A DNA stretch of 26,582 nucleotides from an uncultured Oscillospiraceae bacterium (GTDB lineage: Bacteria; Bacillota; Clostridia; Oscillospirales; Oscillospiraceae): positions 122,390-148,971 of the forward strand of contig CALWOP010000177.1 in NCBI GenBank assembly GCA_944383195.1, in the 5' to 3' direction. This document shows positions 1 to 26,582 of this stretch, in pieces. Positions within the stretch are counted from its first letter, which is position 1. Every line of letters starts with the position of its first letter. A program made the translations under genes and the position numbers. Below the pieces are notes generated by a model. The model saw only the letters and a program-made list of their open reading frames with translations. It did no database searches and was not told the origin of the DNA.

Positions 1-64
1 CCTCAACGGCAACCAATGAAACATATCAGAAAGCTATTTACTTTCTTAAATGAGGAGGAAGCGC

Positions 65-1603
65 ATGAAGAGTAATTATGTAGATACAGCAGCTATTACT
101 CAAGTAATTGGATGCGTGCTTAATAATGCCTCTATTCTTGATGATACAGATAGATATATAATCCACGAAGATGATTTCCAAGAAGATTTTCATAAGATAG
201 TCTTTGGTAGTATATATAACATACATTTAACTGGCAGTCAAGTTAATATAGATGCAATTATAGACTATTTAGCAAATAGACCAAAGTTTGATGCAATATT
301 TAAGCAAAATAAAGGAGTCGAATATCTTCTTGAGGCTTCATAGAAGGCAAGGCAAGATACATTTAATTATTATTATAATAGATTAAAGAAGTTTACCTTG
401 CTAAGAGCGTATGATAATTTTGGTCTTGATGTTACTTATCTTTATGATCCAAATAATATTCTTGATACTCAGAAGCGACAAAAACAAGAAGATTGGTTAG
501 ATAATACAAGTTTAATAGAAATAGCTCATGCCATTGATATAAAAATAGATGAAATCAAGAGCAAATATATAGAGGATGATTTAGGGTTGGGGTATCAAGC
601 TGGCGATGGAATTGATGAGCTTATTAGCGATTTAGAGCAACATCCAGAAGTTGGTATTCCATTATATGGTCCCCTTATTAATACTGTAACAAGAGGAGCA
701 AGATTGCGAAAGTTTTATTTGCGGTCGGCCGCCACAGGAACGGGTAAGACGAGATCTATGATTGCAGATGCGTGCAATTTTGCGTGCAATGAAATCTACC
801 ATGAACAGTTTGGATGGATTAGAAACGGAACTTCTCAACCAACTTTATTTATAGCGACAGAGCAAGATAAGGGAGAAGTTCAAACAATGATGCTTGCTTT
901 TCTTTCTGCTGTAAATGAAGAGCATATCTTAAATGGTCAATATTTAGAGGGAGAAAAAGATCGGGTACTCAAGGCCGCAGACATAATTAAAAGAAGTCCA
1001 ATCTGGATTGAAGAATTACCAGACTTTTCTCTACAAGATGTAGAAAACAAGATTAAAAAGAATATTCGTGAGCATGAAGTGAAATACGTCTTATTTGATT
1101 ATCTTCAAACCTCTCTTAAAATCCTTGAAGAAATCAGTAAGAAATCTGGCGGAGTAAAGTTAAGAGAAGATAATATCTTGTTTATGTTATCCGCAAGACT
1201 TAAAGATTTAGCTAATAAATATGGTATTTTTATTATGTCTGCTACTCAATTAAATGCTGATTATCAAAATAGTGAAACTCCAGATCAAAATCTGTTGCGC
1301 GGCGCAAAAAGTATTGCAGATAGAATTGACGTTGGTATGATTCTACTTAGTGTTACAGATGAAGATTTAGTAAAGCTTGATCCTATATTAGATAGTAACA
1401 AGAATTTACTAAGACCAAATCTTAAATTATCAGTTTACAAAAATCGCCGTGGTTCATATAAAGGAGTATATTTATGGTGTTCAGCAGATCTCGGAACTTG
1501 TCGTATTTTACCACAGTTCTGTACTAATTGGAGACACGAGATGGTAAGTATTGAAGATATAAGAGTTATAGTTGATGAAGGTCCAGCTGCATGGGAGAAA
1601 TAA
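65..1603 (+). CDS. dnaB: DnaB-like replicative DNA helicase. One in-frame TAG at 341-343 is read through.
   Basis: The two track ORFs 50..343 and 398..1603 are in the same frame, separated only by a TAG. The N-terminal region resembles the DnaB N-domain (TAAITQVIGCVLNNASILDD...IDAIIDYL). Walker A motif is RSAATGTGKTR. The ATG at 65 is preceded by GGAGGA. Stop codon is TAA. Confidence 0.8.
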
Positions 1604-1729
1604 GCACAAATCTTGAAAAAGTAGATTAGGCTTTAAAGGAATTAGATATATCTCTCAAAAACCTAGATGGAACTTTTAAGCATATTAGTGATATTTTTAA
1701 TGAAATATCTAATAAATGGAGGAATCTTT

Positions 1730-1906
1730 ATGAAGAGCAATAACACACTTGAATATCGTATGAGTAAGAAAATGTTTAACTCTATTCTTTCTGGAAGAAG
1801 CGAAGAAGAGAAGAAACAAAACCCTAAAGATTATGTGGCTGGAGTAGTTAATGAACAGTTTGGACTTAAAGGAACTGTAACTAATATTTCTGTATATGAT
1901 GTTTAA
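1730..1906 (+). CDS. Hypothetical small protein (58 aa).
   Basis: ATG at 1730 is preceded by AATGGAGGAA. The ATG at 1667 is rejected because that N-terminus would be encoded across the RBS. Stop codon is TAA, abutting the primase start. Confidence 0.4.
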   Translation: MKSNNTLEYRMSKKMFNSILSGRSEEEKKQNPKDYVAGVVNEQFGLKGTVTNISVYDV

Positions 1907-1908
1907 TT

Positions 1909-3012
1909 ATGTCAAGATATTATGATAAAGATGAACTAAAAAGCAAGTTAGAATTAGAGCAAATATATGATTTAATAGAAGCATGGGGTGGTGAGCCTGA
2001 ATATGTAGATGGAGGGCTCATCTCCCAAACAATATGTCATAATCTTCCAGGAGAAGGATCAAGAAAGTTGTATTATTATGAGAATACGAAACTTTTTAGA
2101 TGCTATACCGGATGTATAGATCCAACTTTTGACATCTTTGACTTATGTATAAAAGTTAAGAAAAAACAAGAGGATAAAAAGTGGGAACTTTATGATGCTA
2201 TGGATTACATAGCAGGATATTTTGGATTCGATGGCGTAGAATTAAAAGACGAAGAAGAAAAATTAAAAGATTGGGATGTATTTAAGCGACATAATATTCA
2301 ACTGCCCAAGCCCAAAGAAATTATCCATTTAAAAGAATATAACCCTATTATTCTTACTCGTTTTTCTTATCCTAGAATTGCGGGATGGGAGGCTGAAGGA
2401 ATTTTACCCGAGGTAAATAGAAGAAACTTTATTGGGTATTATCCTGGTGGAGGATAGATAACAATTCCGCATTTTGACATAGATAATAGATTAGTTGGAA
2501 TTAGAGGAAGAACCTTATCTACTGATGATGCAGAGAGATATGGTAAATATAGACCTCTTATGGTAAATAGGCAACTATATAATCATCCATTAAGTATGAA
2601 TTTATATAATCTCAATCACAGCAAAGAAAATATAAAAAAGGTAAAAGCCGCAATTATATTCGAATCAGAGAAGAGCTGTCTCATGTATCAATCTTATTAT
2701 GGGTATGATAATGATATATCTGTAGCTTGCTGTGGAAGTAGTATATCTAGCTATCATATAGATTTACTTAAATCATTAGGTGTTAATGAAATTATAGTGG
2801 CTTTTGATAGACAGTTTGTTGAAATAAGCGATGATGAATTTAAACGATTAAAAGCTAAATTAATTCATATATATAACAAGTATAGTAAGAATGTTCGTAT
2901 ATCTGCTATATTTGATAAACGAATGATTCTTCCGTATAAAGCAAGTCCTATAGATGAAGGACCGCAAGTTTTTGAAAAATTATTAAATGAAAGAATTATC
3001 CCATATGAATAA
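1909..3012 (+). CDS. dnaG: DnaG-like DNA primase (zinc finger plus Toprim). One in-frame TAG at 2455-2457.
   Basis: CHC2 zinc-finger motif CHNLPGEG...FRCYTGC. Toprim-like IIFESEKS and AFDRQ follow. Track ORFs 1909..2457 and 2560..3012 are in the same frame and the sequence between them has no stops other than the TAG. Stop codon is TAA. Confidence 0.8.
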
Positions 3013-3032
3013 AATAAGGAGAGTGATAAAGA

Positions 3033-4784
3033 TTGGAATATTCATTAATTAGTCCACGAAATTAGGATTATACAGCGTTAGAATAGGTATTGATAAATAG
3101 AGGTATTAAATATGAAGATATACCTCATTATCTAACTGTATCAGAAAAAGATAATTTATCTCCTTTACTTCTTAATAATATTGAACGCGCTGTTTAGCTA
3201 ATTATTAAGCATATATTAAAAGACGATTCTTATATCTATATCTAGGTAGATAGCGATTGTGATGGATATACTTCTGCGGCTTTATTGCTAAACTATCTTC
3301 ATGCACAATTCCCTTCTGCAATAAACAAGTTTATTTATGGTTTTCATCAAGGTAAAATACATGGTATAAAACCAGAATTAATCCCCGATAAAGTTTCACT
3401 TGTTATTGCACCAGATTCTAGCTCTAATGATTATCAAGAGCATGAAGAATTAGTGAAAAAGGGAATTGATGTATTAGTTATTGACCATCACTTAGCTGAT
3501 AAAGTTTCTGAATATGCCTGTGTAGTGAATAATTAGTTATGTGATTATCCTACTAAGTCGCTATCTGGAGTTGGAGTTGTCTATAAGCTATGTCAATATA
3601 TGGATACTGCTTGCGGGACCGCCTATGCGGACGATTTTCTAGATATTGTCGGCGTAGGTCTCGTTGGAGATATGATGGATATTAGAGACTTTGAGACCCA
3701 TTATCTTGTACAGTAGGGGCTATAGAGGTCACATCTCCGCAATCCATTTATAAAAGGCATGGCTGAAAAGAATGTGTATTAGTTAGGTCGAGGAGATTTA
3801 ACTCCTATTGGAGTAGCGTTCTACATTGTTCCTCTTGTTAATGCAATTACTCGCGTAGGTACTCAAGATGAAAAACAAATTTTGTTTGAAAGTATGCTTG
3901 AATGGAAGGCATATGATCTTATTCCATCTACGAAAAGAGGCTGTAAAGGACAAGAAGAAACTAGATTAGAACAAGCATTGAGAGTTTGTACTAATGTAAA
4001 AAATCGTTAGACTAGAACTAGAGATGCCGAAGTTGAATAGATAGAAACTATTATTCAAGAAAATAATTTATTAGAGCATAAACTTTTAATTATTAAATTA
4101 GAAGATATGCAAGTAGATAGAGGTATTACTGGTTTAATAGCTAATGAGTTAATGAGTGAATATAAGCGTCCTGTTGTTCTTTTATCTAAAACAGTACATG
4201 AGGGACAAGATGCATGGGAAGGTTCAGCTAGAGGATATGAAAAATCTAAGATGAATGATTTTAGATAGTTTGTAAGAAATTCTGGCTTAGTCTTTCTTGC
4301 CGAAGGGCACGCTAACGCTTTTGGTTTTGGTATTTATGATAAAGATTTTGATGATTTTATTTCTTGGTCTGATGAACAATTAAAAGAGATAGAGTTTTCA
4401 CCAAGCTATAAAGTAGATTTTATTTACTCGGCGTCAAATGTTAGCTCTAAAGATATATTAGAATTAGGAGATGCCAAATATCTTTGGGGTTAGAATATTG
4501 ACGAACCACTGATCGCAGTGGAAAATGTTGCAGTAACAAATGATATGCTTAGCCTTATGGCTAAAGATAGGAATCCTACTTTGAAGATTCAATTACCTAA
4601 TGGAGTTACTTGCATCAAGTTTAAATCAAGCGAAGAGGAGCTAGATAATTTATCTAGTGAATTAGGTTGCGTGAGTATAAATTTGATTGGTAAGCCAGAA
4701 GTAAATAGATACTTCGGTAGTGTGACACCACAAATTATTATTACAGATTACGAAATTATAAGTAGATAGAAGTATTACTTTTAA
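3033..4784 (+). CDS. recJ: RecJ-like DHH/DHHA1 phosphoesterase (ssDNA exonuclease) carrying 13 in-frame TAG codons. Start is a putative TTG.
   Basis: Frame 3 is continuous from 3033 to TAA at 4782 if TAG is sense. Motifs span the TAGs: VLINRGI, ERAVQLI...VDSDCDGYTSAALL (DHH motif I-II), VLVIDHH (DHH), and EGHANAFGF (DHHA1 GGGH-like). AAGGAGAG lies 12 nt upstream of TTG 3033. No in-frame ATG is available, so the exact start is uncertain. Confidence 0.72.
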
Positions 4785-4823
4785 TGATTGCGCAACCTCT
4801 TACTAAAGGAGGAAACAATCACG

Positions 4824-5591: not shown

Positions 5592-5601
5592 AGTAAAATA
5601 T

Positions 5602-5637: not shown

Positions 5638-5674
5638 AACTAAAATAGGTTTAACTATTTTTTGGGGTAAAGGT

Positions 5675-6132: not shown

Positions 6133-6319
6133 AAAGAAAATTAAGGGTTACGGATATGACAGTCTTTGTTTAAGATATAATATAGCAAGAGATGCTCAAG
6201 CTAGATATGAAATGACCAATATTTATAGACATGATCCTGAGAAAGCTATGGATATTGCTAAAAGAGACAAACTTCGTTTTTATGAAATCCTTAATGATTT
6301 GATTGGAGAACACGATTAA
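6107..6319 (+). CDS. Hypothetical protein (70 aa).
   Basis: GGAGAAG lies 7 nt before ATG 6107. Its stop overlaps the start of the next gene (TTAATGG). Confidence 0.4.
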   Translation: MDDIMKNIEKKIKGYGYDSLCLRYNIARDAQARYEMTNIYRHDPEKAMDIAKRDKLRFYEILNDLIGEHD

Positions 6320-7500
6320 TGGAATTAACGCGTAAACAAGAGGAAGGATTGCGCATAGCTATTGATAGATATAATCATAATGAACCATATACTGTAATTG
6401 CTGGGTATGCGGGGACAGGGAAGAGTACCTTAATTAACTTCATTATAGCAGCTCTTGAAGTAAATCCAGAAGATGAAGTTGCGTACATTACTTTTACAGG
6501 AAAGGCTTCTGAAGTACTTCGAGAAAAAGGGTGCCCTAATGCTATGACCGCGCATAAACTACTGTACTACAGTAAGCAAATGCCAAATGGTAAATTCTTT
6601 TATCGTCCTCGCCCAAGTCTTGAAAAGGATTACAAAGTTATTGTTGTCGATGAAGTAAGTATGCTTCCTAAAGATATGTGGGATTTATTGCTTACTCATG
6701 GTATTTATGTAATTGCTTGCGGCGACCCCTTCCAAATCCCTCCTATTGACAAGAATCAAGATAATGGCATCTTGAATAATCCTCATATTTTTCTTGATGA
6801 AGTAATGAGACAAGCTAAAGAAAGTGATATTATCTGTCTTAGCATGGATATTCGAGAGGGCAAGAAAATTAATCCTTTTAAAGGAAATGATACGCAAGTT
6901 TTTAATAAGAAAGATCTTTGCGATGGGATGTATTTTTGGGCAGATCAAATCCTTGTTTCTACAAATAAAAGCAGGCATGACATAAATTCTTATATACGAG
7001 ATGATTTAGGGAGAGGATTTGAGCCAGAAATTAATGATAAAGTTATTTGTTTGCGGAATTGCTGGGATACGCTCTCTGAAAAGCAATGTGACCCTCTGAT
7101 CAATGGCTCAATCGGTACAATTAGTGCCATGCACATGGAATCTATTGATTATATTATAATGGGACAAAAGGTAACTGCTCCTGTTTTAGTTACCGATTTA
7201 ATTACTTCCAATGATGAATATAAAAATTTACATATTGATTATACTGCATTAACAACTGGAGAAAAATTTTTTACTCCAAGGCAAGAATATGTTATTAGAA
7301 AGAATAAACAAAATCCTGAACTACCTATTGAGTTCAATTTTGGCTATGCTATTACCGGCCATAGAGCACAAGGCTCTCAATGGAATAAAGTTTTAGTATT
7401 AGAAGAGTCTTTTCCGTTTGATAAAATTGAGCACGCTAGATGGTTATATACTACTGTGACAAGAGCTGCGGAAAAACTTACGTTGATTTTAAGAAATTAA
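6319..7500 (+). CDS. dda: SF1B DNA helicase (Dda/RecD-like). No TAG.
   Basis: Walker A is AGYAGTGKST and Walker B is VIVVDEVSM. The C-terminal motif YAITGHRAQGSQW is also present. Stop codon is TAA. Confidence 0.8.
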   Translation: MELTRKQEEGLRIAIDRYNHNEPYTVIAGYAGTGKSTLINFIIAALEVNPEDEVAYITFTGKASEVLREKGCPNAMTAHKLLYYSKQMPNGKFFYRPRPSLEKDYKVIVVDEVSMLPKDMWDLLLTHGIYVIACGDPFQIPPIDKNQDNGILNNPHIFLDEVMRQAKESDIICLSMDIREGKKINPFKGNDTQVFNKKDLCDGMYFWADQILVSTNKSRHDINSYIRDDLGRGFEPEINDKVICLRNCWDTLSEKQCDPLINGSIGTISAMHMESIDYIIMGQKVTAPVLVTDLITSNDEYKNLHIDYTALTTGEKFFTPRQEYVIRKNKQNPELPIEFNFGYAITGHRAQGSQWNKVLVLEESFPFDKIEHARWLYTTVTRAAEKLTLILRN

Positions 7501-7545: not shown

Positions 7546-8172
7546 ATGTGGACCATATATAGACACATCAATAAAATAAATGGAAAGTCATATATAGGAA
7601 AAGCAAAAGATGTGAATGATAGATGGGCAAATAATGGTAGTAAATATAAAACTTGTCCAAGATTTTGGTCAGCTATTGTTCATTATGGTTGGGACAACTT
7701 TGAGCATACTATTTTAGAAGATAATATAGATGATAAAGAGGTAGATGAACGAGAAAAGTTCTATATTAAATATTACAATTCTCTATATCCGAATGGCTAT
7801 AATTTAGCAATGGGCGGTTCTGGAGGAAATACCTGGGCAGGAAAGACATAGGAAGAAAAATAGAAATTTTCAGAAGAAAGAAGAAATGAGACTTTATCTC
7901 GTGGGGAAGATTGGCATAAAAAATTGTCTCAGGCTCAATATAATAGATGGTCAAAGGTAGAAGAAAAAGAAAAAATGTCCAATAGGGTTTCTGGTGGGAA
8001 AAATCCAATGGCTAAAAGATGCTTGTGTGTAGAGACTGGAATTATCTATAATAGCTATGCTGATGCAGCAGAAGAGTGTGGTTATCCCAGAAGTTCTGGT
8101 TCAAAAATTGGGATGGTAATACGAGGATAGAAGAAAACTTTTGCAGGATTTCATTGGAGATAGATAGATTAA
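7546..8172 (+). CDS. Free-standing GIY-YIG homing endonuclease carrying 4 in-frame TAG codons.
   Basis: GIY-YIG core: IYRHINKINGKSYIGKAKDVNDRW. The C-terminus has NUMOD-like DNA-binding repeats (GGKNPMAKRCLCVETGIIYNSYADAAEECG) that also occur in the intron HEG. Frame 1 is continuous through the TAGs at 7849, 7861, 8128 and 8161, ending in TAA at 8170. AAAGG precedes ATG 7546. Confidence 0.72.
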
Positions 8173-18406: not shown

Positions 18407-19147
18407 ATGTTAAAGCCAATAGATGAAACCGGTCATGTGTATGGAAAGCTAGTAGTAATAAAACGTGGCCCTAATGACAAAAATAATAGAGCTTAGTGGT
18501 TTTGCAAATGTAGCTGTGGCAATGAAATCTTAACTTTAGGCACTTATTTACGAAATAAATCTGTAACAAGTTGCGGCTGTGGTAAATTTAGTCCAAAAGT
18601 AAAGGATGAAACTGGGAAAATCTATGGAGATTGGAAAGTAATAAGACGAGATAAAAATCGCATTGGAGAAGCTTACTGGTTATGCGAATGTTTAAAATGC
18701 GGTACAATTTCTAGTGTATTAGGAACTAATTTAAGAACTGGAAAAAGTCAATCTTGCGGATGCTTAAAATCTAAAGGAGAATAGTTAATATCTTCAATTC
18801 TTACAGAGTTGAAATATAATTTCAAAAAAGAAGTTCATTTCCTAGATTTAAAGAGCCCCTTAAGCAATAACCCCTTGCGGTTTGATTTTGGAGTCTTTAA
18901 TGACGAGGATAATCTTTTATTTTTAATTGAATATCAAGGTATATAGCATGAAAAAGATATTCCTTATTTTGGCAATTCTCTACATGATAATTTATTAAGA
19001 GACGCTGCAAAACGAAAATATTGTAAGCAAAAAGGTATTCCATTAATCTGTTTTACCCATATTAATGGAAAAATTCCTAATTATGAAGATACAAAAGCAT
19101 CTATTAAAGAAAGCTACGAGGAGATTATAAATGAAATATCTAATTGA
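18407..19147 (+). CDS. Putative free-standing homing-type endonuclease carrying 2 in-frame TAG codons. It has two N-terminal zinc-ribbon repeats and a C-terminal Vsr-like / PD-(D/E)xK (DUF559-like) domain.
   Basis: Zinc-ribbon repeats: WFCKCSCGNEILTLGTYLRNKSVTSCGC and YWLCECLKCGTISSVLGTNLRTGKSQSCGC. The C-terminus (FDFGVFNDEDNLLFLIEYQGIQH...RDAAKRKYCKQKGIPLICF) resembles Vsr/DUF559 nucleases, and its E-x-x-G-x-(TAG)-H core is restored as QH. Stop codon is TGA. Confidence 0.55.
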
Positions 19148-19370: not shown

Positions 19371-19934
19371 ATGATAAAGTTTGAAAAAGTCTCTCGTTTT
19401 AATGACATTGATCTACCCCTGCCAACACGAGCAACCGCCAATTCCGCGGGCTATGATTTCGTTGTTGCAGAAGATATTGTTCTTCCTCCCATGAGTTTTC
19501 TTACTTCCAAAGTTCAAGATCATGTATTTGAAGAAAATAAAGATTTAGACTTTTATGGCTTTACCAATCCATTTACTCTTGATGAAATGGCCAAGCTTAC
19601 GAAAAGTTTAAAGTCAAAGGTAACTCTTGTATCAACAGGAATGAAGTGCCATCTTAATCCTGGTCAATATCTTGAATTAAGCGTGCGGAGTTCCACTCCT
19701 CTAAAACACTGGATTATTTGTGGTAATAGTGTAGGTATTATTGACGCAGACTATTGTGATAATCCCGATAACGAGGGAGAGATTTTCTTCCAATTAATTA
19801 ACTTGTCTCCTTTTGCCATTAAACTTAATAGAGGAGATAAGATTGGTCAAGGTATTATTAAAACTTATGGAATTACCGACGACGACTCTGCTACAGGAGA
19901 GCGTTTAGGTGGATTTGGAAGTACAAGTAAGTGA
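19371..19934 (+). CDS. dut: dUTP diphosphatase (trimeric dUTPase). No TAG.
   Basis: All five dUTPase motifs are present: AGYDF, VRSS, GIIDADY, GDKIGQ and ERLGGFGSTSK. Stop codon is TGA. Confidence 0.85.
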   Translation: MIKFEKVSRFNDIDLPLPTRATANSAGYDFVVAEDIVLPPMSFLTSKVQDHVFEENKDLDFYGFTNPFTLDEMAKLTKSLKSKVTLVSTGMKCHLNPGQYLELSVRSSTPLKHWIICGNSVGIIDADYCDNPDNEGEIFFQLINLSPFAIKLNRGDKIGQGIIKTYGITDDDSATGERLGGFGSTSK

Positions 19935-20410
19935 GTAATTTACTATCTTTAGATTAGAGCTCTCGCATTACGGGATATGCTATCTTTGAAGATGGTAAAC
20001 TTAAGACTTATGGGAAATTCACTGTTGATGACGATAATACTGATATAAGATTAGTAAAGATACGATAGAAGGTTTAGGAATTAATAACTAGACATAACAT
20101 AGATGAAGTCGTATTTGAAGATATACAACAATAGAATAACGTTGCTAATAATGTGTAGACTTTTAAAATTTTAGCCGAGGTATATGGAGTAATCTCTGAA
20201 TATTTAGAAGAAAATAAAATACCTCACTCTACAATTTTATCAACCTCATGGAAATCTGCTCTTGGAATTAAAGGAAGAACAAGACCAGAATAGAAGAAAA
20301 ATGCTTAGAATTATGTATTTGAAAATTATGGAGTAAAGCCTACACAAGACGAGAGTGACGCAGTTTGTATCGGTCTCGCGCACATTAAATAGAGTTAGTG
20401 CGCTTGGTAA
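19931..20410 (+). CDS. ruvC: RuvC-like Holliday-junction resolvase carrying 9 in-frame TAG codons. GTG start.
   Basis: The N-terminus LLSLD(TAG)SSRITGYAIF resembles RuvC motif I (IDxGxxxxGxA). The C-terminus DESDAVCIGLAHI resembles RuvC's DAADALAIAICHA. The GTG start overlaps the dut TGA (GTGA). Frame 2 is continuous to TAA at 20408. Confidence 0.7.
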
Positions 20411-20496: not shown

Positions 20497-20913
20497 ATGG
20501 AGCATATAGTAGAGATTATATTTGGCCTAATTTCCGCCGGCGCGCTTGCATTTTGTAGACACTTATATAAATAGCTAAAAGAGTATAAAAGTCTGCTTTA
20601 GGAGAAAAGAAATGATAATCTGATAGACCTTATAGACGAAAAGCTAAAACCTATTCTTGATGATATTGAAGAATTAAGAGCTTATATTCGCAAGATAGAA
20701 GGAAAAGAAAATCGAGATTTGACCCTTATTATTTCTTCTTATAGATTTAGATTAGTCTAGCTATGTAAGATTTATATTAAACAAGGATATATGACACAAG
20801 ATCAATATGATTAGCTTACAGAATTTTATAAGCTATATCATTCTCTAGGCGGAAATGGACAAGCTAAAGAGTATTATGAGAAAACAATGGAATTAGAGAT
20901 TAGACCAGAATAA
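20497..20913 (+). CDS. Small membrane protein of the BhlA/UviB (holin-like) type carrying 5 in-frame TAG codons.
   Basis: N-terminal TM segment IVEIIFGLISAGALAFC, followed by a charged coiled-coil and a C-terminal ...QGYMTQDQYDQLTEFYKLYHSLGGNG. The frame is continuous through the TAGs to TAA at 20911. No Shine-Dalgarno sits within normal spacing; the nearest one is inside the upstream hairpin. Confidence 0.5.
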
Positions 20914-20917
20914 TAAA

Positions 20918-20952
20918 AACGGGGAACTCAATTGAGTTCCCCGTTTCGTTTT
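20918..20952. terminator. Bidirectional rho-independent terminator between convergent genes.
   Basis: AACGGGGAACTC-AATT-GAGTTCCCCGTT, flanked by AAAAA upstream and TCGTTTT downstream. Confidence 0.7.
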
Positions 20953-21254
20953 AATCGGTTAAATATTGAATTAGTCATATTTATTATTTCTTGACCATAA
21001 GTTGCAATTAAATCCGCTAATAATTCTTCTTGTTCAAGAGATAATTCAATATTATAACTAAACATTGCAGCGTGTGTTAACTCGTGACATAAAACTTTTT
21101 TCATCATTAATGGAGATAATTCTTCATTAATATAGATTCCTTTAGTTTTATCATCACAGGCTCCTATTGTTAATTGGCCATCACTTCTAATTAACATAGG
21201 ATGAACTGGAGAGGTTAAAAATAATTTCCATTCTTCTCCATTAATATTAAGCAT
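20928..21254 (-). CDS. Small HExxH zinc-metallopeptidase-like protein (108 aa). No TAG.
   Basis: HELTH motif (VLCHELTHAAM) with a downstream Glu. Its ATG overlaps the upstream gene's stop (ATGCTTAA), suggesting translational coupling. Stop codon is TGA. Confidence 0.5.
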   Translation of the reverse strand: MLNINGEEWKLFLTSPVHPMLIRSDGQLTIGACDDKTKGIYINEELSPLMMKKVLCHELTHAAMFSYNIELSLEQEELLADLIATYGQEIINMTNSIFNRLKRNGELN

Positions 21255-21849
21255 GATTTAAAGAAGATACTTTTGTAGCAAGAGCAGAAATCTTTTTCTC
21301 TAATAGCTATTTTTCTTCTGGGCTTGCATCATCAATCATTTCTACTAAATCTTCACTTAATTCTTTCATATATTTATCTAACTCTCTAATCTTGGTATCT
21401 TTATCTTTATGAAGTTCTTTAGACTCCATATACATACGACGGCTCATTGGACTACGACCTTCTCTAGAATCTCTCAATTCCATAGGAAATTCTCTTTCAT
21501 CATAATAATAAGGTTTTTCTCTATAATTCTTGCGGCCGCCGCTATTACCCTCGGTAAATCTTCCCTAAGAATCTCTACCTTGAGGATAATACATTCTTCC
21601 CCATTCGTCTTTATCCATATCTCTATCTGGGAGATAATAAGGATAAGTCATAGGAATATAGTATTTTGTTGGTTCTTTTTCTTTTTCTTCCATAGCTTTG
21701 GTGATAGTACAATAATATATGGCTTCTTCTAAGTCTTTAATCATATCAATTACTTCACCAAGTTCGTGAGTATCTACATTATGGATGTCGCTTAGTTGAG
21801 CTTGAACGCATCCAATAAGAGTTTCCTTCATATGTTTTAATCTTTCCAT
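21247..21849 (-). CDS. Hypothetical protein (200 aa) carrying 2 in-frame TAG codons. It has a structured N-terminal region of about 60 aa followed by a Y/R/E/D-rich low-complexity region.
   Basis: The track ORF 21565..21849 ends at a TAG. The frame then continues (GRDS-Q-GRFTEGNSGGRKNYREKPYYYDEREF...) to TAA at 21247. Confidence 0.5.
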
Positions 21850-21884
21850 AATTAAGCCACCCTTTCAATAATTAAATTAGCGTT

Positions 21885-22274
21885 CTAAACATCAATAGCT
21901 TGAGTAGATAGATTCTTTACAGCTACTTCAAAGCAACATCCACGTGGGACATCTACAAAAATAGAACTAGATACGTTATTATATTCTCCAGTAGTTGCAG
22001 GAGTAGAAATCATAGTACTTGTGGCTACTCCTTCTCCATTAATAGCAATAGCTAAAGAAATTGGGTCTGCGGTCCCGCCTGTGGCGATCGCTATATTCCC
22101 GCTAAAAGTAATTCTATATCTAGCTCTGCATTGAGTTGTCGTATTTCCTTTTAAAGTTACTAGTCCACTGCCTGTACGGTGTAGTAGGCTGTTGGAACAG
22201 CCTACTACCGTATCAGTAAAAAGGACATTTTGATTAGCTTGTACGGTTTGTACAGCATTCGCAATAATTTCCAT
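21885..22274 (-). CDS. BclA C-terminal-domain-like (C1q/TNF jelly-roll-like) protein, 129 aa. No TAG.
   Basis: AAGGAGAG lies 10 nt before the ATG. The sequence has a beta-rich pattern similar to the BclA CTD (RYRITFSGNIAIATGGTADPISLAIAINGEGVATSTMISTPATTGEYNNVSSSIFVDVPRGCCFEVAV). Stop codon is TAA. Confidence 0.5.
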   Translation of the reverse strand: MEIIANAVQTVQANQNVLFTDTVVGCSNSLLHRTGSGLVTLKGNTTTQCRARYRITFSGNIAIATGGTADPISLAIAINGEGVATSTMISTPATTGEYNNVSSSIFVDVPRGCCFEVAVKNLSTQAIDV

Positions 22275-22303
22275 TGAACCAAATCTCTCCTTTATTAATT
22301 AAA

Positions 22304-23203
22304 TTAGCACCCGCAAGTGCTTACTCCATAGCAGCAATTAGGATTGGGTACTACATATGCGGGGACCGGACAATCGCGGCCCAGTCTACGGATAAGTTCT
22401 GCTTGATTTGCATCCATTGCTGCCATAAGGGTAGCGTTTTGAGTGCTTTGAGAAGCTGCAAGACGGAGTGCCTGATTCTCGTTCTGAAGATCTGTAATTT
22501 TCTCCTGGCAGAGATAATCAAGAATAGCACGAGTTCCAGCATTTTGACTATCAATAATATCACGAGTATTATTGGCCAAAGAAGTCTGGAGAGCAGAGGT
22601 GTTTGTTGCCATATTATAGTTGACATCGGCAAAGCCTCTCTCAATCTGGCGTCCGGTTTCGCAGCAACAATCTGCAATTTGACGAGAAATAGCATTTTGA
22701 TTAGTAATATTATCAAAATTAGCTTGCTAAATTGTAGATTTAGTATCGCAGCAACAATTAGAAAGCTGCGTAGCTAAAGCATTCTGTCCTTGCATTAAAG
22801 CAACGCTAGCATTATTAAATCCTTGCTGAGTCTGATAACCAAGCTGGCAAATTGCATTATCAACTCCGTGGAATCCATTAGTAAGAGAATTATTTAAGGC
22901 ATATGTGCTGTCGCAAATACCCTGTTGAATCCCTGTAATGCCGCTCTGAAGATTCTGTAATGCAAAACCTTCATTTATGTCTGCGCGAGTAGCCCAGCCT
23001 TGTCCAGAAGGAGAGCCGAGTCCTCCATTACCACTACCATATCCTCCACCAAAGCCAAAACCGTTTCCCCAACCAGAGAAACAGAAGAGGAAGAGAATAA
23101 TGATCCACCATGCGCCACCGTCGTTCCACATATTGCCGGACCCAGAATTTCCGGTCGCTGCCGCAATATCTGCTAAAGAGTATCCATTGTTAGAATTGAA
23201 CAT
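22304..23203 (-). CDS. Membrane-anchored Gly-rich, Q/N-rich protein (299 aa) with repeated CCC(D/E)T motifs and a Cys-rich C-terminus. One in-frame TAG.
   Basis: AAAGGAGGAA lies 8 nt before the ATG. TM segment AWWIIILFLFCF is followed by GWGNGFGFGGGYGSGNGG. The ORF is continuous from 23203 through a TAG at 22727 to TAA at 22304, joining the three track ORFs 22727..23203, 22351..22716 and 22304..22612. Cys motifs: NCCCDTK, DCCCETG and a terminal CPVPAYVVPNPNCCYGVSTCGC. Confidence 0.55.
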
Positions 23204-23216
23204 TTAAGTTCCTCCT

Positions 23217-23249
23217 TTAAGAAAATTTAAAGGCCGAGCATTTTCTTAA
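23217..23249. promoter_or_regulatory. Perfect 10-bp inverted repeat with a 13-nt spacer.
   Basis: TTAAGAAAAT-(13 nt)-ATTTTCTTAA. It overlaps the stop of the small upstream gene and lies about 14 nt upstream of the Shine-Dalgarno of the CCC-motif gene. Confidence 0.35.
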
Positions 23250-23460
23250 AGTTGGCAAACTCCTTATCGTAATCTAATCCTCTTTGAGACATAATATTTC
23301 TTGCTATTTGCTCAATTTCTGCTGTTTTATTCTATTTAGCCAGATCTAGCAAATTAGCTCCAAATGGATTATTCCCCATCTAGTTTTCTAACATATATAA
23401 TGCTAACTATTGAGGATTCTATCCATTCCTGATCATTTGAATTAACTCCATTGGGTTCAT
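23227..23460 (-). CDS. Hypothetical small protein (77 aa) carrying 4 in-frame TAG codons.
   Basis: AAGGAGAAG lies 7 nt before the ATG. The frame is continuous through the TAGs to TAA. Confidence 0.45.
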
Positions 23461-23472
23461 CTTATCTTCTCC

Positions 23473-23871
23473 TTAAAAATCTAATTTTGGCTTTGACTGT
23501 TGCGTCGTCTCTTGAGGCGGCGCAATTTTTTCTTTTAACTAAGCTAATGCGGTTTCAAATTCTTCCCTAGTAATATACTGAGAAGGATTGATAACTGTTT
23601 CTGTCGGGGTATTCTTTAATTCATAAATATTAAGAGTTGAAGTTCCATCAAGATTAATCTACTTTGTATATATCTTTTTATTCGCTAAGTCAGGAAAGAA
23701 AAATACTGAACCATCAAAGTCAATACTAGTCGCCTTTACTTCTTCGATTGAAGAAACTGGGCGACCTTTAATTCCAATCTAGGACTATTCCACATACTGC
23801 ATTCTCTATTGCGGCATATAAGGGGTGGCCGCAAATTGTTGTGGCATATAGTATGGATAATTGACTGCCAT
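23473..23871 (-). CDS. Hypothetical protein (132 aa) carrying 5 in-frame TAG codons.
   Basis: AAAGGAGGTAAAACT precedes the ATG. A protein-like sequence (GIKGRPVSSIEEVKATSIDFDGSVFFFPDLANKKIY...) reads through the TAGs. Stop codon is TAA. Confidence 0.5.
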
Positions 23872-23899
23872 AGTTTTACCTCCTTTAAAATATTCCCTT

Positions 23900-23984
23900 G
23901 GCCTTTCATTGATATATAAAAATTTGGCAAAGATAATTTTACTATTTTGCCAAAAATTTTGCCAATTTTATAGTAAAAAAATAT
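23900..23984 (-). promoter_or_regulatory. Candidate promoter for the minus-strand cluster. It sits among TTGGCAAA / TTTGCCAA inverted and direct repeats that look like operators.
   Basis: Minus-strand reading: TTGGCA-(18 nt)-TAAAAT. Plus-strand reading: TTGGCAAAgataattttactatTTTGCCAAaaattTTGCCAA. Confidence 0.35.
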
Positions 23985-24006
23985 AATGGGGCGTAGTAGC
24001 CCCATT
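23985..24006 (-). terminator. Rho-independent terminator directly after the LL-H holin gene (minus strand).
   Basis: AATGGGGC-GTAGTA-GCCCCATT stem-loop, followed on the minus strand by UAUAUUUUUUUACUA. Confidence 0.55.
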
Positions 24007-24009
24007 ATA

Positions 24010-24394
24010 TTATTCTCTGTTCTTATTAACTTCGGCCTCGATGAGGTTAGTTAGATAAGTATTTAAGTCACCTGTAGTTTCAATAATATACTGCTTTGCA
24101 TCTTCTGATAAGATTTCTAATACTGCATTCATAGTCTTATTAAATGCAGTTTTCTGAGCTTCCGCATCAAAAGCATTCTGCTCTTTTAGACTATTTACAT
24201 AAGTTTGATTCGTTGCTATTACGCACTTTGTAATAGTATCAAAGATCATAGTAGTATATTTTTCAGCTGTCTCATTCTCTGTTTTAGCATTTAACTCATC
24301 TCGTTTTGCATTGAGATAGTCAACAAGATATTTAGTTAAAATACCAAGCAAAGGAATGATACAAAGCTAGAAGATCTGAATAATAATTTCTGGC
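24010..24394 (-). CDS. Phage holin, LL-H family-like (one N-terminal TM), carrying one in-frame TAG.
   Basis: AAAGGAGGAA RBS. TM segment MPEIIIQIF(Q)LCIIPLLGILTKYLV. The body (ATNQTYVNSLKEQNAFDAEAQKTAFNKT...EAEVNKNRE) resembles Holin_LLH. Stop codon is TAA. Confidence 0.6.
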
Positions 24395-24548
24395 ATAGTT
24401 ATAATTCCTCCTTTATATATTATATAAAACAAGAGGAAGATGATTTAACTATTATTGGCCTTATTACACTTTACTGAACTTGGACAACTATATATAATTT
24501 ATCTACTCTTTCTTTCAAATATATTTGAAAAGAGTAAGATACTCACTT

Positions 24549-24587
24549 TTGGGAAAAGGGTTTCTTACCCTTTTCCCAATTTTTTTA
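24549..24587 (+). terminator. Strong plus-strand intrinsic terminator with no annotated plus-strand gene upstream of it.
   Basis: TTGGGAAAAGGGT-TTCTT-ACCCTTTTCCCAA (13-bp stem) followed by TTTTTTTAT. Confidence 0.65.
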
Positions 24588-24698
24588 TTATCTAGAAAGA
24601 AGAAGTATTTTTCCTGTTAAAAAGTGTACTTTTTCTCGGAAATTGTTTATAGACTTCTAAAAGACTGGAGCGAAGATCGCTTCCATCCTCGACCTTCT

Positions 24699-24745
24699 AT
24701 CTAGTAATTTAGATATATCTAGAACAATAGCTAGATAGAAGGAGG
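24699..24745. promoter_or_regulatory. Two adjacent palindromes built from TATCTAG / CTAGATA heptamers, immediately upstream of the Ig-like gene's RBS.
   Basis: cTATCTAGtaattTAGATAtaTCTAGAacaatagCTAGATAgaaGGAGG. Confidence 0.35.
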
Positions 24746-24754
24746 TAAACAACT

Positions 24755-26536
24755 TTGCCTAAATGTATTTTAACTGAATAGGGTGGAAAAGGCGGAGGAG
24801 GCGGCTCTATTTCCCTTATTAAGATTGAGGTAACAACTCCACCTAATAAAACTAGCTATCTCGCGGGCGACACCTTTAATCCTGCGGGAATGGTGATCAC
24901 CGCATCTTACGGCATGGAAGGCGTAGTTATTACAACGGCAGAAGTAACTGGCTATCAAGTTACTCCTTCTCCTCTTACTGATGGAACTCAGCAAGTAACC
25001 ATTACTTATTCTGAGCTGGGAGAGACTTGTCAAACTACTTATCCTGTAACTGTAACTCATAGACTTACAAGTATTGAAGTAACTTCTAATCCCTCTACTA
25101 TAACTTATGAGTATGGAGATACTCTTCAAACAACAGGAATAGTAGTTACTGCTCACTACTCTGACGGAGATACATCTGCGGTTTCCGGGTATCAATGCTC
25201 TCCAACCTCGCTTACTACAGTAGGTAGTCAACAGATTACAGTTAGTTATAGCGAGAATGGTGTAACTCAAACTACTACATTTAATGTAACAGTTAATCGT
25301 AAGTCTGTAGCTAAGCCAACTTGGAAGAGTAATCTCACCTATAATGGTAACTCTCAGTCTGTTAATGGAACAAGCTATTGGAATAACTTTAATACTACCT
25401 ATATGAGTATTGGTGGCACAACTTCTGCTACTAATGCAGGAACTTATACTGCTACATTTACTCCTGGTAGTAATTATCGTTGGTCTGATGGAACAACTGA
25501 TCCTATTAACGTAAATTGGACTATCAATCGTGCAGCCGGATCTTTAAGTGTGTCTCCTTAGACTGTTGAGATCAATGGTAATAACTATAGTTCTGGCGTA
25601 AATGTTACTATTACTCGCTCTGGAGATGGCGCTATTAGTTATAGTCCTACTAGTGTAAGCGGCTTAACTTTAAGTTTAAGTGGTAACACTTTAAATATTA
25701 AAGGTAATGGTTCTACTGCTATTAGCGGACAAAAAATTACTATCAATGTCGCTCAAGGAACTAACTACCTGGCTCCCGCAAGCAAACAGATTACTGTCAA
25801 TGCTACTTATTGGGAATGGGGCTCTGAAACCGCTGTAGGAGATGCCTCTTGGTGGGCTGGATTAAAAACTTGGGCTGCTAGTGCTAGCACTTCTGAAAGA
25901 AGCGCTTGTGTCGGTAAGAAAAAGAAAGTAAGTCTTTCTACTGCTGTGTTAGGTGCTAATCAAGCCTCTATGGTTTGTATTGGTGCAGACCAAGACGGAG
26001 CTGGTACTTTAACTTTCCAAACTGAAGGTACTTTACCAACTACTACTTAGTTTGGTAGTAATGCAGTATGGATTGGTTCTACTGCTAGAAGTCAATGTTA
26101 GAATTTCTACAATTATTGTAGTGCTAAAAATTCTATTAAGACTGTAAGTAAAGGTACTTGTCCTAGCACAAACGATTCAAGAAATGGCTCTGTAACTTAC
26201 AGCAACGAAACCGTATGGTTACCGTCTGAACGAGAGATGGGATTAGATAGCTATGCTCCAATTTCTACGGCCAATAGCACAACCTCTAAAGCTGAATGTA
26301 CAAAGGGTCATAATGCTGCCTATAGTTACTATACAAATAATAGCAGACGCATTAAATATCAGATGAACGCCAATGGTTCGTTGACGAGTTCAGCGTAGTG
26401 GTATTGGGAGAGGTCTCGTTATTACCGTTCGGACATCTCGACCTACGTTTGCGTTGTCGGCAGCGGTGGCTCTGCGGACTTCTACGGCTACTACATCGTC
26501 AGCCACGGGCTCGCGCCGGCTTTCGTTATCGGATAA
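24755..26536 (+). CDS. Ig-like (Big_3-type) repeat-containing protein (about 593 aa) carrying 5 in-frame TAG codons. The last roughly 45 codons are GC-rich and dominated by NNC codons, making them a candidate DGR variable region.
   Basis: GAAGGAGGTAAACAAC precedes TTG 24755. The frame is continuous through TAGs at 24776, 25559, 26047, 26098 and 26395 to TAA at 26534. Ig-like repeats include ITVSYSENGVTQTTTFNVTV and VTITYSELGETCQTTYPVTV. No signal peptide. Confidence 0.6.
26395..26536 (+). repeat. Candidate DGR variable region / GC-rich island at the 3' end of the Ig-like gene.
   Basis: About 57% GC against about 32% in the rest of the window. 22 of 36 codons are NNC (gac atc acc tac tgc gtc ggc agc ...). 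The window ends 46 nt downstream, so no template repeat (TR) or reverse transcriptase (RT) is visible. Confidence 0.35.
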
Positions 26537-26582
26537 TACAGCAAAATAATATTCAGGACAGTTAAGATTAAATTGTCCAGCA

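What the first reader, a model, noticed from the sequence alone, without database searches (positions are those of the whole stretch)
1..26582. Amber (TAG) stop-codon reassignment across the window, most likely TAG to Gln
About 70 TAG codons lie in-frame inside genes whose conserved motifs continue on both sides; the clearest cases are RecJ DHH/DHHA1, RuvC, NrdD, NrdG, Gmk, DnaB, DnaG and the GIY-YIG HEGs. All roughly 37 genes end with TAA or TGA and none ends with TAG. No frameshifts are needed to join the pieces, so these are not pseudogene fragments. At two well-conserved positions, the GIY-YIG YIG-Q-T and the NrdG C-terminal GS-x-N-Q, TAG falls where Gln is expected. Recoded phages of this kind are known from gut metagenomes (crAss-like, Lak). 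Here the signature is directly legible from the sequence and suggests a Firmicutes-type large phage.
Basis: partly seen in the sequence, partly recalled or inferred. Interest (0 to 1): 0.8.

Follow-up and report, generated by a model that had tools for sequence, protein, structure and literature searches.

The report
Amber codon read as glutamine, phage
This stretch of a roughly 150-kb gut phage genome uses the stop codon TAG as a glutamine codon in most of its genes; the call is correct, but the phenomenon is already well described in gut phages.

Summary
With TAA/TGA as the only stops, the window resolves into 32 genes (94% coding). They hold 69 in-frame TAGs in 19 genes. Pfam domains of RecJ, RuvC, Gmk, NrdD, NrdG and DnaB run across them. 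At the window's TAG sites, related contigs carry TAG (157) or Gln codons (159), and never TAA or TGA. Gln beats every other amino acid by about 50 to 350 log-likelihood units. Across 171 orthologue C-termini the stop is TAA or TGA, never TAG. The window has no tRNA. Four relatives' contigs that carry this replication module also encode a conserved tRNA(CUA) whose acceptor end resembles tRNA-Gln. It is 85% identical to a suppressor tRNA of the published code-15 phage phAss-1. The window is identical to part of a 152-kb public scaffold, where these genes are already called at full length. TAG use is very uneven: 0 of 50 Gln codons in PolIII alpha, about 50% in the nucleases, and one at holin codon 10. 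This is a new member of a known kind, so interest is modest.

The parts
50..1603 (+). DnaB-like replicative helicase (g01), 1 in-frame TAG at 341
   Evidence: Pfam DnaB and DnaB_C span the TAG. Relatives have CAA at this site. Standard-code public gene calls split it into 92 + 401 aa.
1909..3012 (+). DNA primase (g03), 1 TAG at 2455
   Evidence: PHROG 47 DNA primase, E = 8e-30. Eight relatives have CAA at the site.
3033..4784 (+). RecJ-like DHH exonuclease (g04), TTG start. 13 in-frame TAGs: 3063, 3084, 3195, 3243, 3534, 3714, 3723, 3780, 4008, 4038, 4266, 4491, 4767. TAG supplies 46% of its Gln codons.
   Evidence: DHH, DHHA1 and RecJ_OB domains span the TAGs. Start. Site-by-site TAG/CAA/CAG exchange with relatives. 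The phAss-1 orthologue has 6 TAGs.
6319..7500 (+). SF1 (RecD/Dda-like) helicase (g08), TAG-free (0 of 13 Gln codons)
7546..8172 (+). Free-standing GIY-YIG homing endonuclease (g09), 4 TAGs (7849, 7861, 8128, 8161)
   Evidence: Pfam GIY-YIG; 4 of 6 Gln positions are TAG.
8191..12099 (+). DNA polymerase III alpha (g10), 1302 aa, TAG-free: 0 of 50 Gln codons (binomial p = 2e-5)
   Evidence: 0-2 TAGs in nine representative relatives and 0 of 59 in phAss-1. Used as the unbiased anchor for finding relatives.
12074..12619 (+). Guanylate kinase (g11), 3 TAGs (12437, 12452, 12548)
   Evidence: The Pfam Guanylate_kin match covers residues 1-174 across the TAGs.
12688..13941 (+). nrdD exon 1 (anaerobic ribonucleotide reductase; the ORF runs on to 13965), 2 TAGs (12976, 13300)
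   Evidence: Pfam ATP-cone plus NRDD profile positions 2-265. Relatives have an uninterrupted gene.
13942..15078 (+). 1137-bp insert in nrdD carrying GIY-YIG gene g13 (14123-14953; TAGs at 14237, 14537). Probably a group I intron.
   Evidence: Absent from 16 of the 19 IMG/VR relatives (L008 and L012 carry a different insert; L018 aligns only in part). Joining the exons reproduces their sequence exactly. Exon 1 ends in T and the insert ends in G. No Rfam group I match.
15079..16086 (+). nrdD exon 2, TAG-free
   Evidence: Pfam NRDD profile positions 264-562 plus Gly_radical.
16083..16742 (+). Strain-specific ORF g16 of unknown function, 6 TAGs (16128, 16185, 16230, 16344, 16356, 16506)
   Evidence: No orthologue in the IMG/VR relatives, and blastn shows no counterpart in L162. 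Weak C-terminal PHROG head-morphogenesis motif.
16748..17221 (+). NrdG activase (g18), TTG start, 2 TAGs (17105, 17198)
   Evidence: The Pfam Fer4_12 match covers residues 15-154 across both TAGs. The 17198 site is CAA, CAG or TAG in all 10 aligned relatives.
18407..19147 (+). HNH-type homing endonuclease (g22), 3 TAGs (18494, 18782, 18944)
   Evidence: PHROG 374/559/9084.
19371..19934 (+). dUTPase (g24), TAG-free
19931..20410 (+). RuvC-like Holliday-junction resolvase (g25), 9 TAGs: 19955, 20066, 20075, 20132, 20156, 20291, 20306, 20390, 20396. TAG supplies 75% of its Gln codons.
   Evidence: Pfam RuvC covers residues 5-151. Binomial p = 7e-5. Orthologues stop at the same TAA, past the C-proximal TAGs.
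20497..20913 (+). Unknown ORF g26, 4 TAGs (20572, 20599, 20758, 20812)
20928..24396 (-). Minus-strand block g27-g33, 14 TAGs in all: 21307, 21565, 21885, 22727, 23332, 23380, 23407, 23419, 23539, 23659, 23779, 23785, 23806, 24367. It includes holin g33 (24010-24396), whose TAG is at codon 10.
   Evidence: PHROG 13712 holin, E = 2e-33. Holin TAG conserved in L001, L003 and L005. Coordinates.
24755..26536 (+). Big_3 (Ig-like) domain protein g36, TTG start, 5 TAGs (24779, 25559, 26048, 26099, 26396)
   Evidence: No orthologue lies within the flanks fetched, so these five sites rest on ORF continuity alone.

Best explanation
The window is part of a roughly 150-kb tailed phage of gut Clostridia-type hosts that uses genetic code 15. 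TAG is translated as glutamine, and only TAA and TGA terminate.

Shown: TAG is a sense codon in 19 of 32 genes. It stands where Gln stands in relatives. It is never used as a terminator in this clade.

Shown for close relatives and inferred for this genome: decoding is done by a phage-encoded suppressor tRNA with anticodon CUA. It sits in a conserved cassette, Ser(UGA) - CUA - Leu(CAA) - Cys(GCA), about 40-45 kb from the replication module in the two contigs where I measured the distance.

Inferred: host enzymes charge that tRNA with Gln, and it competes with release factor 1 at UAG.

Inferred from the uneven TAG distribution and from the published model: TAG acts as a translational gate. Genes free of TAG can be made in the unmodified host. 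These are PolIII alpha, the SF1 helicase, nrdD exon 2 and dUTPase. Full-length RecJ, RuvC, the homing endonucleases, the holin and many small proteins appear only once the suppressor tRNA has accumulated.
For: ORF coverage rises from 0.68 to 0.93 only when TAG is sense. Pfam domains are continuous across TAGs.

Codon tally at the window's TAG sites in 12 representative relatives: TAG 157, CAA 113, CAG 46, Lys 38, no TAA/TGA. CAA differs from TAG at two bases and still dominates, so selection on the protein explains the pattern better than mutational proximity does.

Likelihood: Gln is best by 356, 52 and 52 lnL units in the close, mid and far groups. TAG-to-Gln rates equal Gln-to-Gln rates. 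In reverse, relatives' TAGs align mainly with the window's TAG and CAA.

In 171 orthologue C-termini, TAG is never the stop.

tRNA(CUA) lies on the same contigs as L002, L003, L004 and L006 (88-89% PolIII identity). It also lies on a second contig from the sample that gave L001 (93%).

The tRNA has a canonical cloverleaf. Its stems show compensatory changes between lineages. U1 (C1 in one copy) stays unpaired opposite U72, with G73 and an encoded CCA. Its acceptor end matches the phage's own tRNA-Gln(UUG) best among tRNAs on the same contig. [quoted passage not shown]

TAG is 20% of Gln codons overall but heterogeneous (chi-square 98.8, p = 2e-11). It is 50% in nucleases and 6% in polymerase, helicase and nucleotide enzymes (Fisher p = 2e-11). 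The holin has a TAG at codon 10. PolIII is TAG-free and RecJ recoded even in phAss-1, at 36-38% identity.
Against: No tRNA lies in the window or within 10 kb of PolIII in any relative. I could not reach the cassette on the window's own 152-kb scaffold, so the suppressor tRNA is inferred for this genome.

The tRNA's Gln identity rests on resemblance. Global similarity does not discriminate between isotypes (Gln 0.71, Asn 0.70, Trp 0.70), and the acceptor-end tally was noisy.

No release factor or aminoacyl-tRNA synthetase was seen near the cassette.

The gating model is not clean. DnaB and the primase each carry one TAG, so replication itself needs some suppression. RuvC is TAG-rich only in the closest lineage. 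The nuclease grouping was made after seeing the data. There are no expression or proteomic data.
Confidence: 0.9

Rival explanations
1. TAG is a sense codon but stands for another amino acid, such as Lys, Glu, Tyr or pyrrolysine. ARAGORN labels the CUA tRNA 'tRNA-Pyl'.
For: Lys is the second most frequent residue opposite the window's TAGs (38 of 438 cells). ARAGORN's label is Pyl.
Against: Lys and Glu trail Gln by 52 to 366 lnL units in all three distance classes. The Lys seen is what ordinary Gln sites also drift to. The 'Pyl' label is only ARAGORN's default name for a CUA anticodon. The tRNA has a normal 8-nt D-loop with GG, a 5-bp anticodon stem, a 4-5-nt variable loop and a GGTTCGAATCC T-arm. 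From established knowledge, tRNA-Pyl has none of these. It is a class I tRNA, which argues against bacterial Tyr, Ser and Leu types.
Confidence: 0.03
2. The standard code applies, and the TAGs are real stops. On this view the genes are pseudogenes, assembly or sequencing errors, or naturally fragmented ORFs.
For: Some public pipelines call these genes as fragments, for example DnaB as 92 + 401 aa.
Against: Only TAG interrupts, and never TAA or TGA. 136 TAG cells are conserved in the five close relatives, which are independently assembled contigs at about 88% identity. Domains and orthologue alignments continue through the TAGs in frame. Independent assemblies are 100% identical over 22 kb. TAG is never a terminator in 171 C-termini.
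Confidence: 0.01
3. TAG is Gln, but decoding depends on the host and not on a phage tRNA. Either the host itself reads TAG as Gln or it carries a natural amber suppressor. The tRNA(CUA) seen in relatives would then be dispensable or absent from this genome.
For: No tRNA in the window, and the cassette was not reached on the window's own scaffold. Published surveys found suppressor tRNAs in only about 40% of TAG-recoded phage genomes (bioRxiv 10.1101/2021.08.26.457843).
Against: Four contigs of this clade that also carry the replication module hold the cassette, as do a contig from L001's sample and a 142-kb ENA contig (L168). The tRNA is conserved with compensatory changes. [quoted passage not shown] From general knowledge, no bacterium with TAG as Gln has been described.
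Confidence: 0.06

Closest known systems
Genetic code 15 (TAG to Gln) phages of gut microbiomes: crAss-like, Lak and the 'gemstone' clades, especially Agate (bioRxiv 10.1101/2021.08.26.457843; metaproteomic proof in PMC9523058)
   Same: In-frame TAG at Gln positions. TAA and TGA are the only stops. A phage-encoded tRNA(CUA). Standard-code hosts are presumed. Recoding is uneven, sparing some early genes and hitting a lysis gene and intron or homing endonucleases. Like Agate, the genome is about 150 kb with Firmicutes-type hosts.
   Different: In this window the heaviest recoding is in replication-module nucleases (RecJ, RuvC, homing endonucleases) and not in structural genes. Most structural genes lie outside the window. 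Membership of Agate is defined by terminase phylogeny, which I could not test. No RF2 was seen in the regions examined.
Phage phAss-1 (OQ749652) and the proposed Phassvirus group (PMC10607447); NCBI taxon 'Caudoviricetes code 15 clade'
   Same: A human-gut phage of about 136 kb with TAG as Gln. The replication and nucleotide gene set is the same (primase, RecJ, SF1 helicase, PolIII alpha, NrdD, NrdG, RuvC). Enterococcus phage EF1 is a standard-code outgroup. Its second tRNA-Sup-CTA is 85% identical to this clade's tRNA. PolIII is TAG-free and RecJ is recoded.
   Different: Only 36-42% protein identity (PolIII 38%). GC is 44.5% against 33.8%. It has 36 tRNAs and three suppressors; in this clade one suppressor was seen per contig region examined. 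There is no nucleotide-level match. It is therefore not the same genus. The paper's divergent recoded genomes with about 33% GC (BK032759, BK051641) may be closer, but they are not in the collections I could search.
SPbeta-type and Enterococcus EF1/VRE9-type phage replication module (YorH, YorI helicase, YorJ primase, YorK RecJ-like, YorL PolIII alpha)
   Same: The helicase-primase-RecJ-PolIII gene content and order match my recollection of the SPbeta yorH-yorL module, which I did not check here. Tested here: YorF- and YorH-family genes lie upstream, and PolIII is about 40% identical to SPbeta YorL.
   Different: The paper reports no stop-codon recoding in EF1, and SPbeta is taken to use the standard code from general knowledge. 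Here TAG has been captured as a sense codon.
Phage T4 nrdD (sunY) group I intron carrying a GIY-YIG homing endonuclease (recalled from the literature)
   Same: nrdD is interrupted by an insert of about 1.1 kb that encodes a GIY-YIG endonuclease. The insertion is precise relative to uninterrupted homologues. U precedes the 5' junction and G ends the insert.
   Different: No Rfam group I match. Splicing is untested. A gene truly split into two polypeptides is not excluded, because an ATG sits directly before exon 2.

Membership tests
Code-15 (TAG to Gln) recoded Caudoviricetes | In-frame TAG inside conserved genes, with homology continuing on both sides | tested here: met
   69 TAGs in 19 of 32 genes. 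Pfam and PHROG domains span them.
Code-15 (TAG to Gln) recoded Caudoviricetes | TAG is not used as a terminator; only TAA and TGA terminate | tested here: met
   24 TAA and 8 TGA in the window. 0 TAG among 171 distinct orthologue C-termini.
Code-15 (TAG to Gln) recoded Caudoviricetes | TAG positions correspond to Gln in homologues | tested here: met
   159 Gln against 38 Lys, the next most frequent. Gln is the maximum-likelihood residue in three distance classes. The same holds at conserved RecJ sites against phAss-1.
Code-15 (TAG to Gln) recoded Caudoviricetes | The genome encodes a suppressor tRNA with anticodon CUA (common but not universal in this group) | tested here: inconclusive
   Absent from the window. 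Present on four relatives' contigs that carry the module, and on L154 and L168. The window's own scaffold could not be scanned.
Code-15 (TAG to Gln) recoded Caudoviricetes | Gln detected at TAG positions in peptides | not testable with these tools
   Needs metaproteomics, as done in PMC9523058.
Proposed genus Phassvirus (phAss-1) | Genus-level nucleotide similarity and synteny with OQ749652 | tested here: not met
   No megablast match to any phage record. Protein identities are 24-42%. GC is 33.8% against 44.5%.
Agate clade (Borges et al.) | Placement in the large-terminase phylogeny | not tested
   There is no terminase gene in the window or the fetched flanks. Only genome size, host type and the recoded homing endonuclease resemble it.
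tRNA-Pyl | Atypical cloverleaf: short D-loop without GG, 6-bp anticodon stem, 3-nt variable loop, no canonical T-loop (from established knowledge) | tested here: not met
   The CUA tRNA has a canonical D-loop with GG, a 5-bp anticodon stem and a GGTTCGAATCC T-arm.
tRNA-Gln-type suppressor | tRNA-Gln acceptor identity set: U1 with a weak or open 1:72 pair, and a G73 discriminator (from established knowledge of GlnRS and GatCAB recognition) | tested here: inconclusive
   U1 (C1 in one copy) opposite U72, with G73, is conserved in the cassette-type copies and in L146, L149, L156 and L158; L155 has no encoded CCA, so its end cannot be read. The closest acceptor end among tRNAs on the same contig is tRNA-Gln(UUG). 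Global similarity is not discriminating. Charging was not tested.
Group I intron (nrdD insert 13942-15078) | Precise insertion, U before the 5' splice site, G as last intron base, conserved catalytic core | tested here: inconclusive
   The boundaries and the U and G are as expected. No Rfam Intron_gpI match, even at E of 1 or less.

The most novel reading that the evidence does not exclude
In this lineage amber recoding may act as more than a late-gene switch. It may be a gene-by-gene safety catch on DNA-cutting enzymes placed inside an otherwise standard-coded early replication operon. RecJ, RuvC, three homing endonucleases and the holin would be made at full length only after the phage's tRNA(CUA) accumulates, while the polymerase, helicase and nucleotide enzymes next to them are translated at once. 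A linked open point is how a CUA-anticodon tRNA gets charged with Gln in Clostridia-type hosts. If the host makes Gln-tRNA by the indirect GluRS/GatCAB route, an unrecognised phage factor or an unusual tolerance of the host enzymes would be needed.
Probability: 0.25. Interest if true: 0.55.

Novelty: new member of a known kind. Interest (0 to 1): 0.3.

Why it matters
In practice, annotating this genome with the standard code breaks 19 of its 32 genes, and some public gene calls on identical contigs are broken in just this way. Translation table 15 has to be used.

Biologically, the window adds a well-resolved example of TAG-to-Gln recoding in an SPbeta-like lineage of phages from gut Clostridia-type hosts. 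It comes with a graded series of relatives in which TAG and CAA/CAG can be seen swapping site by site.

The sharp contrast between neighbouring genes gives a concrete, testable case for the published idea that recoding times or restrains the expression of dangerous proteins. PolIII alpha uses TAG at 0 of 50 Gln codons, RecJ at 13 of 28 and RuvC at 9 of 12. The result does not change what is known about the genetic code.

Tried and rejected
- Megablast of the window against 50,697 phage records found no match.
- Solved-structure alignments for NrdG and Gmk were uninformative. The TAG sites fall outside the aligned core or in variable segments, so I dropped the PDB route in favour of codon-level comparison with relatives.
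- Global similarity of the CUA tRNA to 470 typed phage tRNAs did not discriminate between isotypes. A tally of positions 1, 72 and 73 by isotype was noisy because ARAGORN's 3' ends are inconsistent.
- Rfam found no group I intron in the window at gathering threshold, or in the nrdD insert at E of 1 or less. The only hit there was a chance FuFi-1 match.
- I tried several ways to reach the suppressor tRNA on the window's own genome. An exact look-up of a TAG-truncated fragment found nothing on record. A look-up of g02 returned only short contigs. A homology search with the DUF2828 gene next to the cassette, followed by cluster listing, found no member on the 152-kb scaffold.
- BK051641 is not in the collections.
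- Neither L153 (my own ORFs read by eye) nor L168 (stored Pfam hits) showed a release factor or aminoacyl-tRNA synthetase within about 10 kb of the tRNA cassette.
- Considered and rejected: pyrrolysine, pseudogenisation or sequencing error, and TGA or TAA reassignment.

Full report
**1. The observation**

The window is 26,582 bp with 33.8% GC. Stop-to-stop ORFs of at least 100 aa cover 68.3% of it under the standard code and 92.5% if TAG is sense. The control with TGA as sense gives 74.3%. TAA as sense inflates spurious ORFs on both strands, as expected in AT-rich DNA.

I called genes with TAA/TGA as stops. I corrected three starts to TTG codons preceded by AAGGAG-type Shine-Dalgarno sequences (3033, 16748, 24755) and dropped four short overlapping ORFs. 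This gives 32 genes covering 94.2% of the window. They hold 69 in-frame TAGs in 19 genes; 24 genes end in TAA and 8 in TGA.

With TAG written as X, Pfam domains run across the TAGs:
- DnaB and DnaB_C
- RecJ DHH, DHHA1 and OB
- Guanylate_kin
- NRDD
- Fer4_12 (NrdG)
- RuvC
- GIY-YIG, in two genes

PHROGs adds a primase, an HNH-type homing endonuclease and a holin.

"No gene ends in TAG" is circular once TAG is treated as sense, so I tested it another way. In 171 distinct orthologue C-termini from related contigs, the first TAA, TGA or TAG after the last aligned residue is TAA 121 times, TGA 50 times and TAG never. It is usually at the window's own stop position. This includes RecJ and RuvC, whose last TAGs lie 3-5 codons from the end.

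**2. What TAG stands for**

I used the TAG-free PolIII alpha as a neutral anchor. That gave 19 IMG/VR contigs with 93% down to 32% PolIII identity. All except the most distant gain coding density when TAG is sense.

I aligned every window protein to these loci and read the relatives' actual codons opposite each window TAG. In 12 representative loci the tally is TAG 157, CAA 113, CAG 46, Lys codons 38, and small numbers of others. TAA and TGA never appear.

I then took the substitution profile of each of the 20 amino acids from the same alignments and asked which best explains the TAG profile:

| Group | Gln lnL | Next best |
|---|---|---|
| Close relatives | -93 | -449 (Glu) |
| Mid distance | -209 | -261 (Lys) |
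| Distant | -184 | -236 (Lys) |

The TAG-to-Gln rates (0.83, 0.41, 0.36) track the Gln-to-Gln rates (0.87, 0.45, 0.41). In reverse, relatives' TAGs align mainly with the window's TAG and CAA.

CAA differs from TAG at two bases yet is the main partner. That points to selection on the protein and not to mutational neighbourhood.

Against the distant phage phAss-1, the conserved RecJ sites are again CAG.

**3. What the element is**

- There is no nucleotide-level match among 50,697 phage records.
- The best cultured relatives by PolIII are Enterococcus phages VRE9 and EF1 and Bacillus SPbeta, at about 40%.
- Genes upstream hit the SPbeta YorF and YorH families.
- An exact-protein look-up showed that window 1-22099 is 100% identical to ENA ERZ28614505 scaffold_169 (152,188 bp) and to a Logan contig.
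- A 147.8-kb contig binned in an "uncultured Eubacterium sp." MAG is 96-97% identical over most of the aligned region. More distant relatives sit in bins of Acutalibacteraceae, Lachnospiraceae and Gemmiger.

These contigs are phage-sized, so the binning suggests Clostridia hosts but does not prove it. The anaerobic RNR genes fit an anaerobic host.

Gene calls stored for scaffold_169 are full length across TAG, whereas calls on other identical short contigs are fragmented.

**4. How TAG is decoded**

Neither the window nor any 24-kb relative locus has a tRNA.

A pattern for a CUA anticodon loop plus a canonical T-arm hit two loci lying on the same contigs as L002 and L003. ARAGORN finds a cassette there: tRNA-Ser(UGA), tRNA(CUA), tRNA-Leu(CAA), tRNA-Cys(GCA).

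The exact anticodon arm recurs on 16 viral contigs. They include the contigs of L004 and L006 and a second contig from the sample that gave L001. It also occurs on a 142-kb ENA contig. On the two contigs where I measured it, the cassette lies 40-45 kb from PolIII, which is why it is outside the window.

The tRNA is a normal class I cloverleaf. Its stems show compensatory changes between lineages. U1 (or C1) is unpaired opposite U72, G73 is the discriminator, and CCA is encoded. ARAGORN's "Pyl" label is only its name for a CUA anticodon; the tRNA has none of the peculiarities of tRNA-Pyl.

- Its acceptor end is closest to the phage's own tRNA-Gln(UUG): positions 2-6, U72 and G73 are identical.
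[quoted passage not shown] PMC10607447 reports a tRNAscan-SE prediction of Gln for phAss-1's tRNA-SUP-CTA.
- Global similarity to typed tRNAs is not discriminating.

Gln charging is therefore a reasoned inference, not a result. No release factor or synthetase gene was seen within about 10 kb of the cassette.

**5. Uneven use of TAG**

TAG supplies 69 of 341 inferred Gln codons (20%), but very unevenly (chi-square 98.8, 23 d.f., p = 2e-11):

| Gene | TAG / Gln codons |
|---|---|
| PolIII alpha | 0 / 50 (p = 2e-5) |
| SF1 helicase | 0 / 13 |
| nrdD exon 2 | 0 / 14 |
| RecJ | 13 / 28 |
| RuvC | 9 / 12 |
| GIY-YIG g09 | 4 / 6 |
| HNH endonuclease | 3 / 6 |

Grouping after the fact, nucleases use TAG for 50% of Gln codons, replication and nucleotide enzymes for 6%, and the rest for 23%. 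The holin has a TAG at codon 10, conserved in close relatives.

PolIII stays at 0-2 TAGs in the nine representative relatives checked and at 0 of 59 in phAss-1. RecJ is recoded in every lineage checked, including phAss-1 (6 TAGs). RuvC is TAG-rich only in the closest lineage.

This fits the published proposal that recoded stops delay late or dangerous proteins until the suppressor is made. That paper also reports an intron homing endonuclease as preferentially recoded in Agate phages. The fit is imperfect, because DnaB and the primase each carry one TAG.

**6. Comparison with what is known, and novelty**

TAG-to-Gln recoding in gut phages is established:
- bioinformatically, in bioRxiv 10.1101/2021.08.26.457843
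- by metaproteomics, in PMC9523058
- in a related PolIII-alpha/EF1-like group, in PMC10607447

NCBI even has a taxon named "Caudoviricetes code 15 clade".

The window is not a Phassvirus: protein identity is 24-42%, the GC content differs, and there is no DNA match. It resembles the Agate description, but I could not test terminase placement.

I therefore rate it a new member of a known kind.

**7. Side observation**

nrdD is split at 13942-15078 by a 1137-bp insert carrying a GIY-YIG gene.
- 16 of the 19 IMG/VR relatives have an uninterrupted gene, and the joined exons reproduce their sequence.
- L008 and L012 carry a different insert elsewhere in nrdD; L018 aligns only in part.
- L162, the contig about 96% identical to the window, appears to share the window's insert.
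- The exon ends in T and the insert ends in G, as in group I introns, but Rfam gives no match.

Noticed in passing
window 13942-15078 (g13 at 14123-14953): nrdD is interrupted by a 1137-bp insert that encodes a GIY-YIG endonuclease. 16 of the 19 IMG/VR relatives have an intact nrdD. The junction bases (U before, G last) fit a group I intron, but Rfam finds none. L008 and L012 carry a different insert of about 970 bp at another nrdD site.
   Followed up: partly
window 17218-17760 (g19): A short (180 aa) formate/nitrite-transporter-family membrane protein is encoded directly after nrdG. From established knowledge, class III ribonucleotide reductase uses formate as its reductant, so a phage formate channel next to nrdDG may be functionally linked. 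It is conserved in close relatives, and phAss-1 has a 29%-identical homologue.
   Followed up: no
window 16083-16742 (g16): A TAG-rich ORF (6 TAGs) lies between nrdD and nrdG. It has no orthologue in any IMG/VR relative and no counterpart in the 96%-identical contig L162. Its Cys/His-rich C-terminus weakly matches phage head-morphogenesis families.
   Followed up: partly
window 7546-8172, 14123-14953, 18407-19147; L162 4448-5295 and 14439-14915: The homing-endonuclease load is heavy and variable. The window has two GIY-YIG genes and one HNH-type gene. The near-identical contig L162 has extra segments of about 850 bp and 480 bp at other intergenic sites (between primase and RecJ, and between gmk and nrdD).
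   Followed up: no
L168 7879-9757; also L049, L132, L152-L154, L157: The suppressor sits in a conserved cassette, tRNA-Ser(UGA) - tRNA(CUA) - tRNA-Leu(CAA) - tRNA-Cys(GCA). The tRNAs are separated by TAG-free ORFs of about 100 aa with unknown function. In L168, ordinary tRNA-Gln(UUG) and tRNA-Gln(CUG) lie about 8 kb upstream.
   Followed up: partly
L168 10001-14372: Just downstream of the tRNA cassette lie a DUF2828/DUF7788 protein (506 aa, very widespread, at least 7,998 database hits) and an 813-aa protein with faint vault-repeat (Vault_3) and stronger major-vault-protein shoulder (MVP_shoulder) Pfam hits. These are unusual neighbours for a tRNA block.
   Followed up: no
L020-L025 compared with L166: Public gene calls for the same DNA disagree. 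Several assemblies call fragments that end at TAG, while the calls for ERZ28614505 scaffold_169 are full length. Database proteins for this phage are therefore a mix of truncated and complete forms.
   Followed up: yes
all 69 TAG sites in the window: The base after an in-frame TAG is A in 48% of cases, against 32% after CAA and 38% after CAG. This is a mild context bias. I did not test its significance.
   Followed up: no
L017 (IMGVR_UViG_3300032167_000002) and L010: A relative with 61% PolIII identity lies on a 402-kb contig and on a 176-kb contig with identical local sequence statistics. It could be a much larger genome, a concatemer or a host-linked contig.
   Followed up: no
window 4824-5591 (g05): A protein with a tail-lysozyme domain and an N-terminal hydrophobic signal-like segment is encoded inside the replication module, between RecJ and the SF1 helicase. 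It is TAG-free.
   Followed up: no
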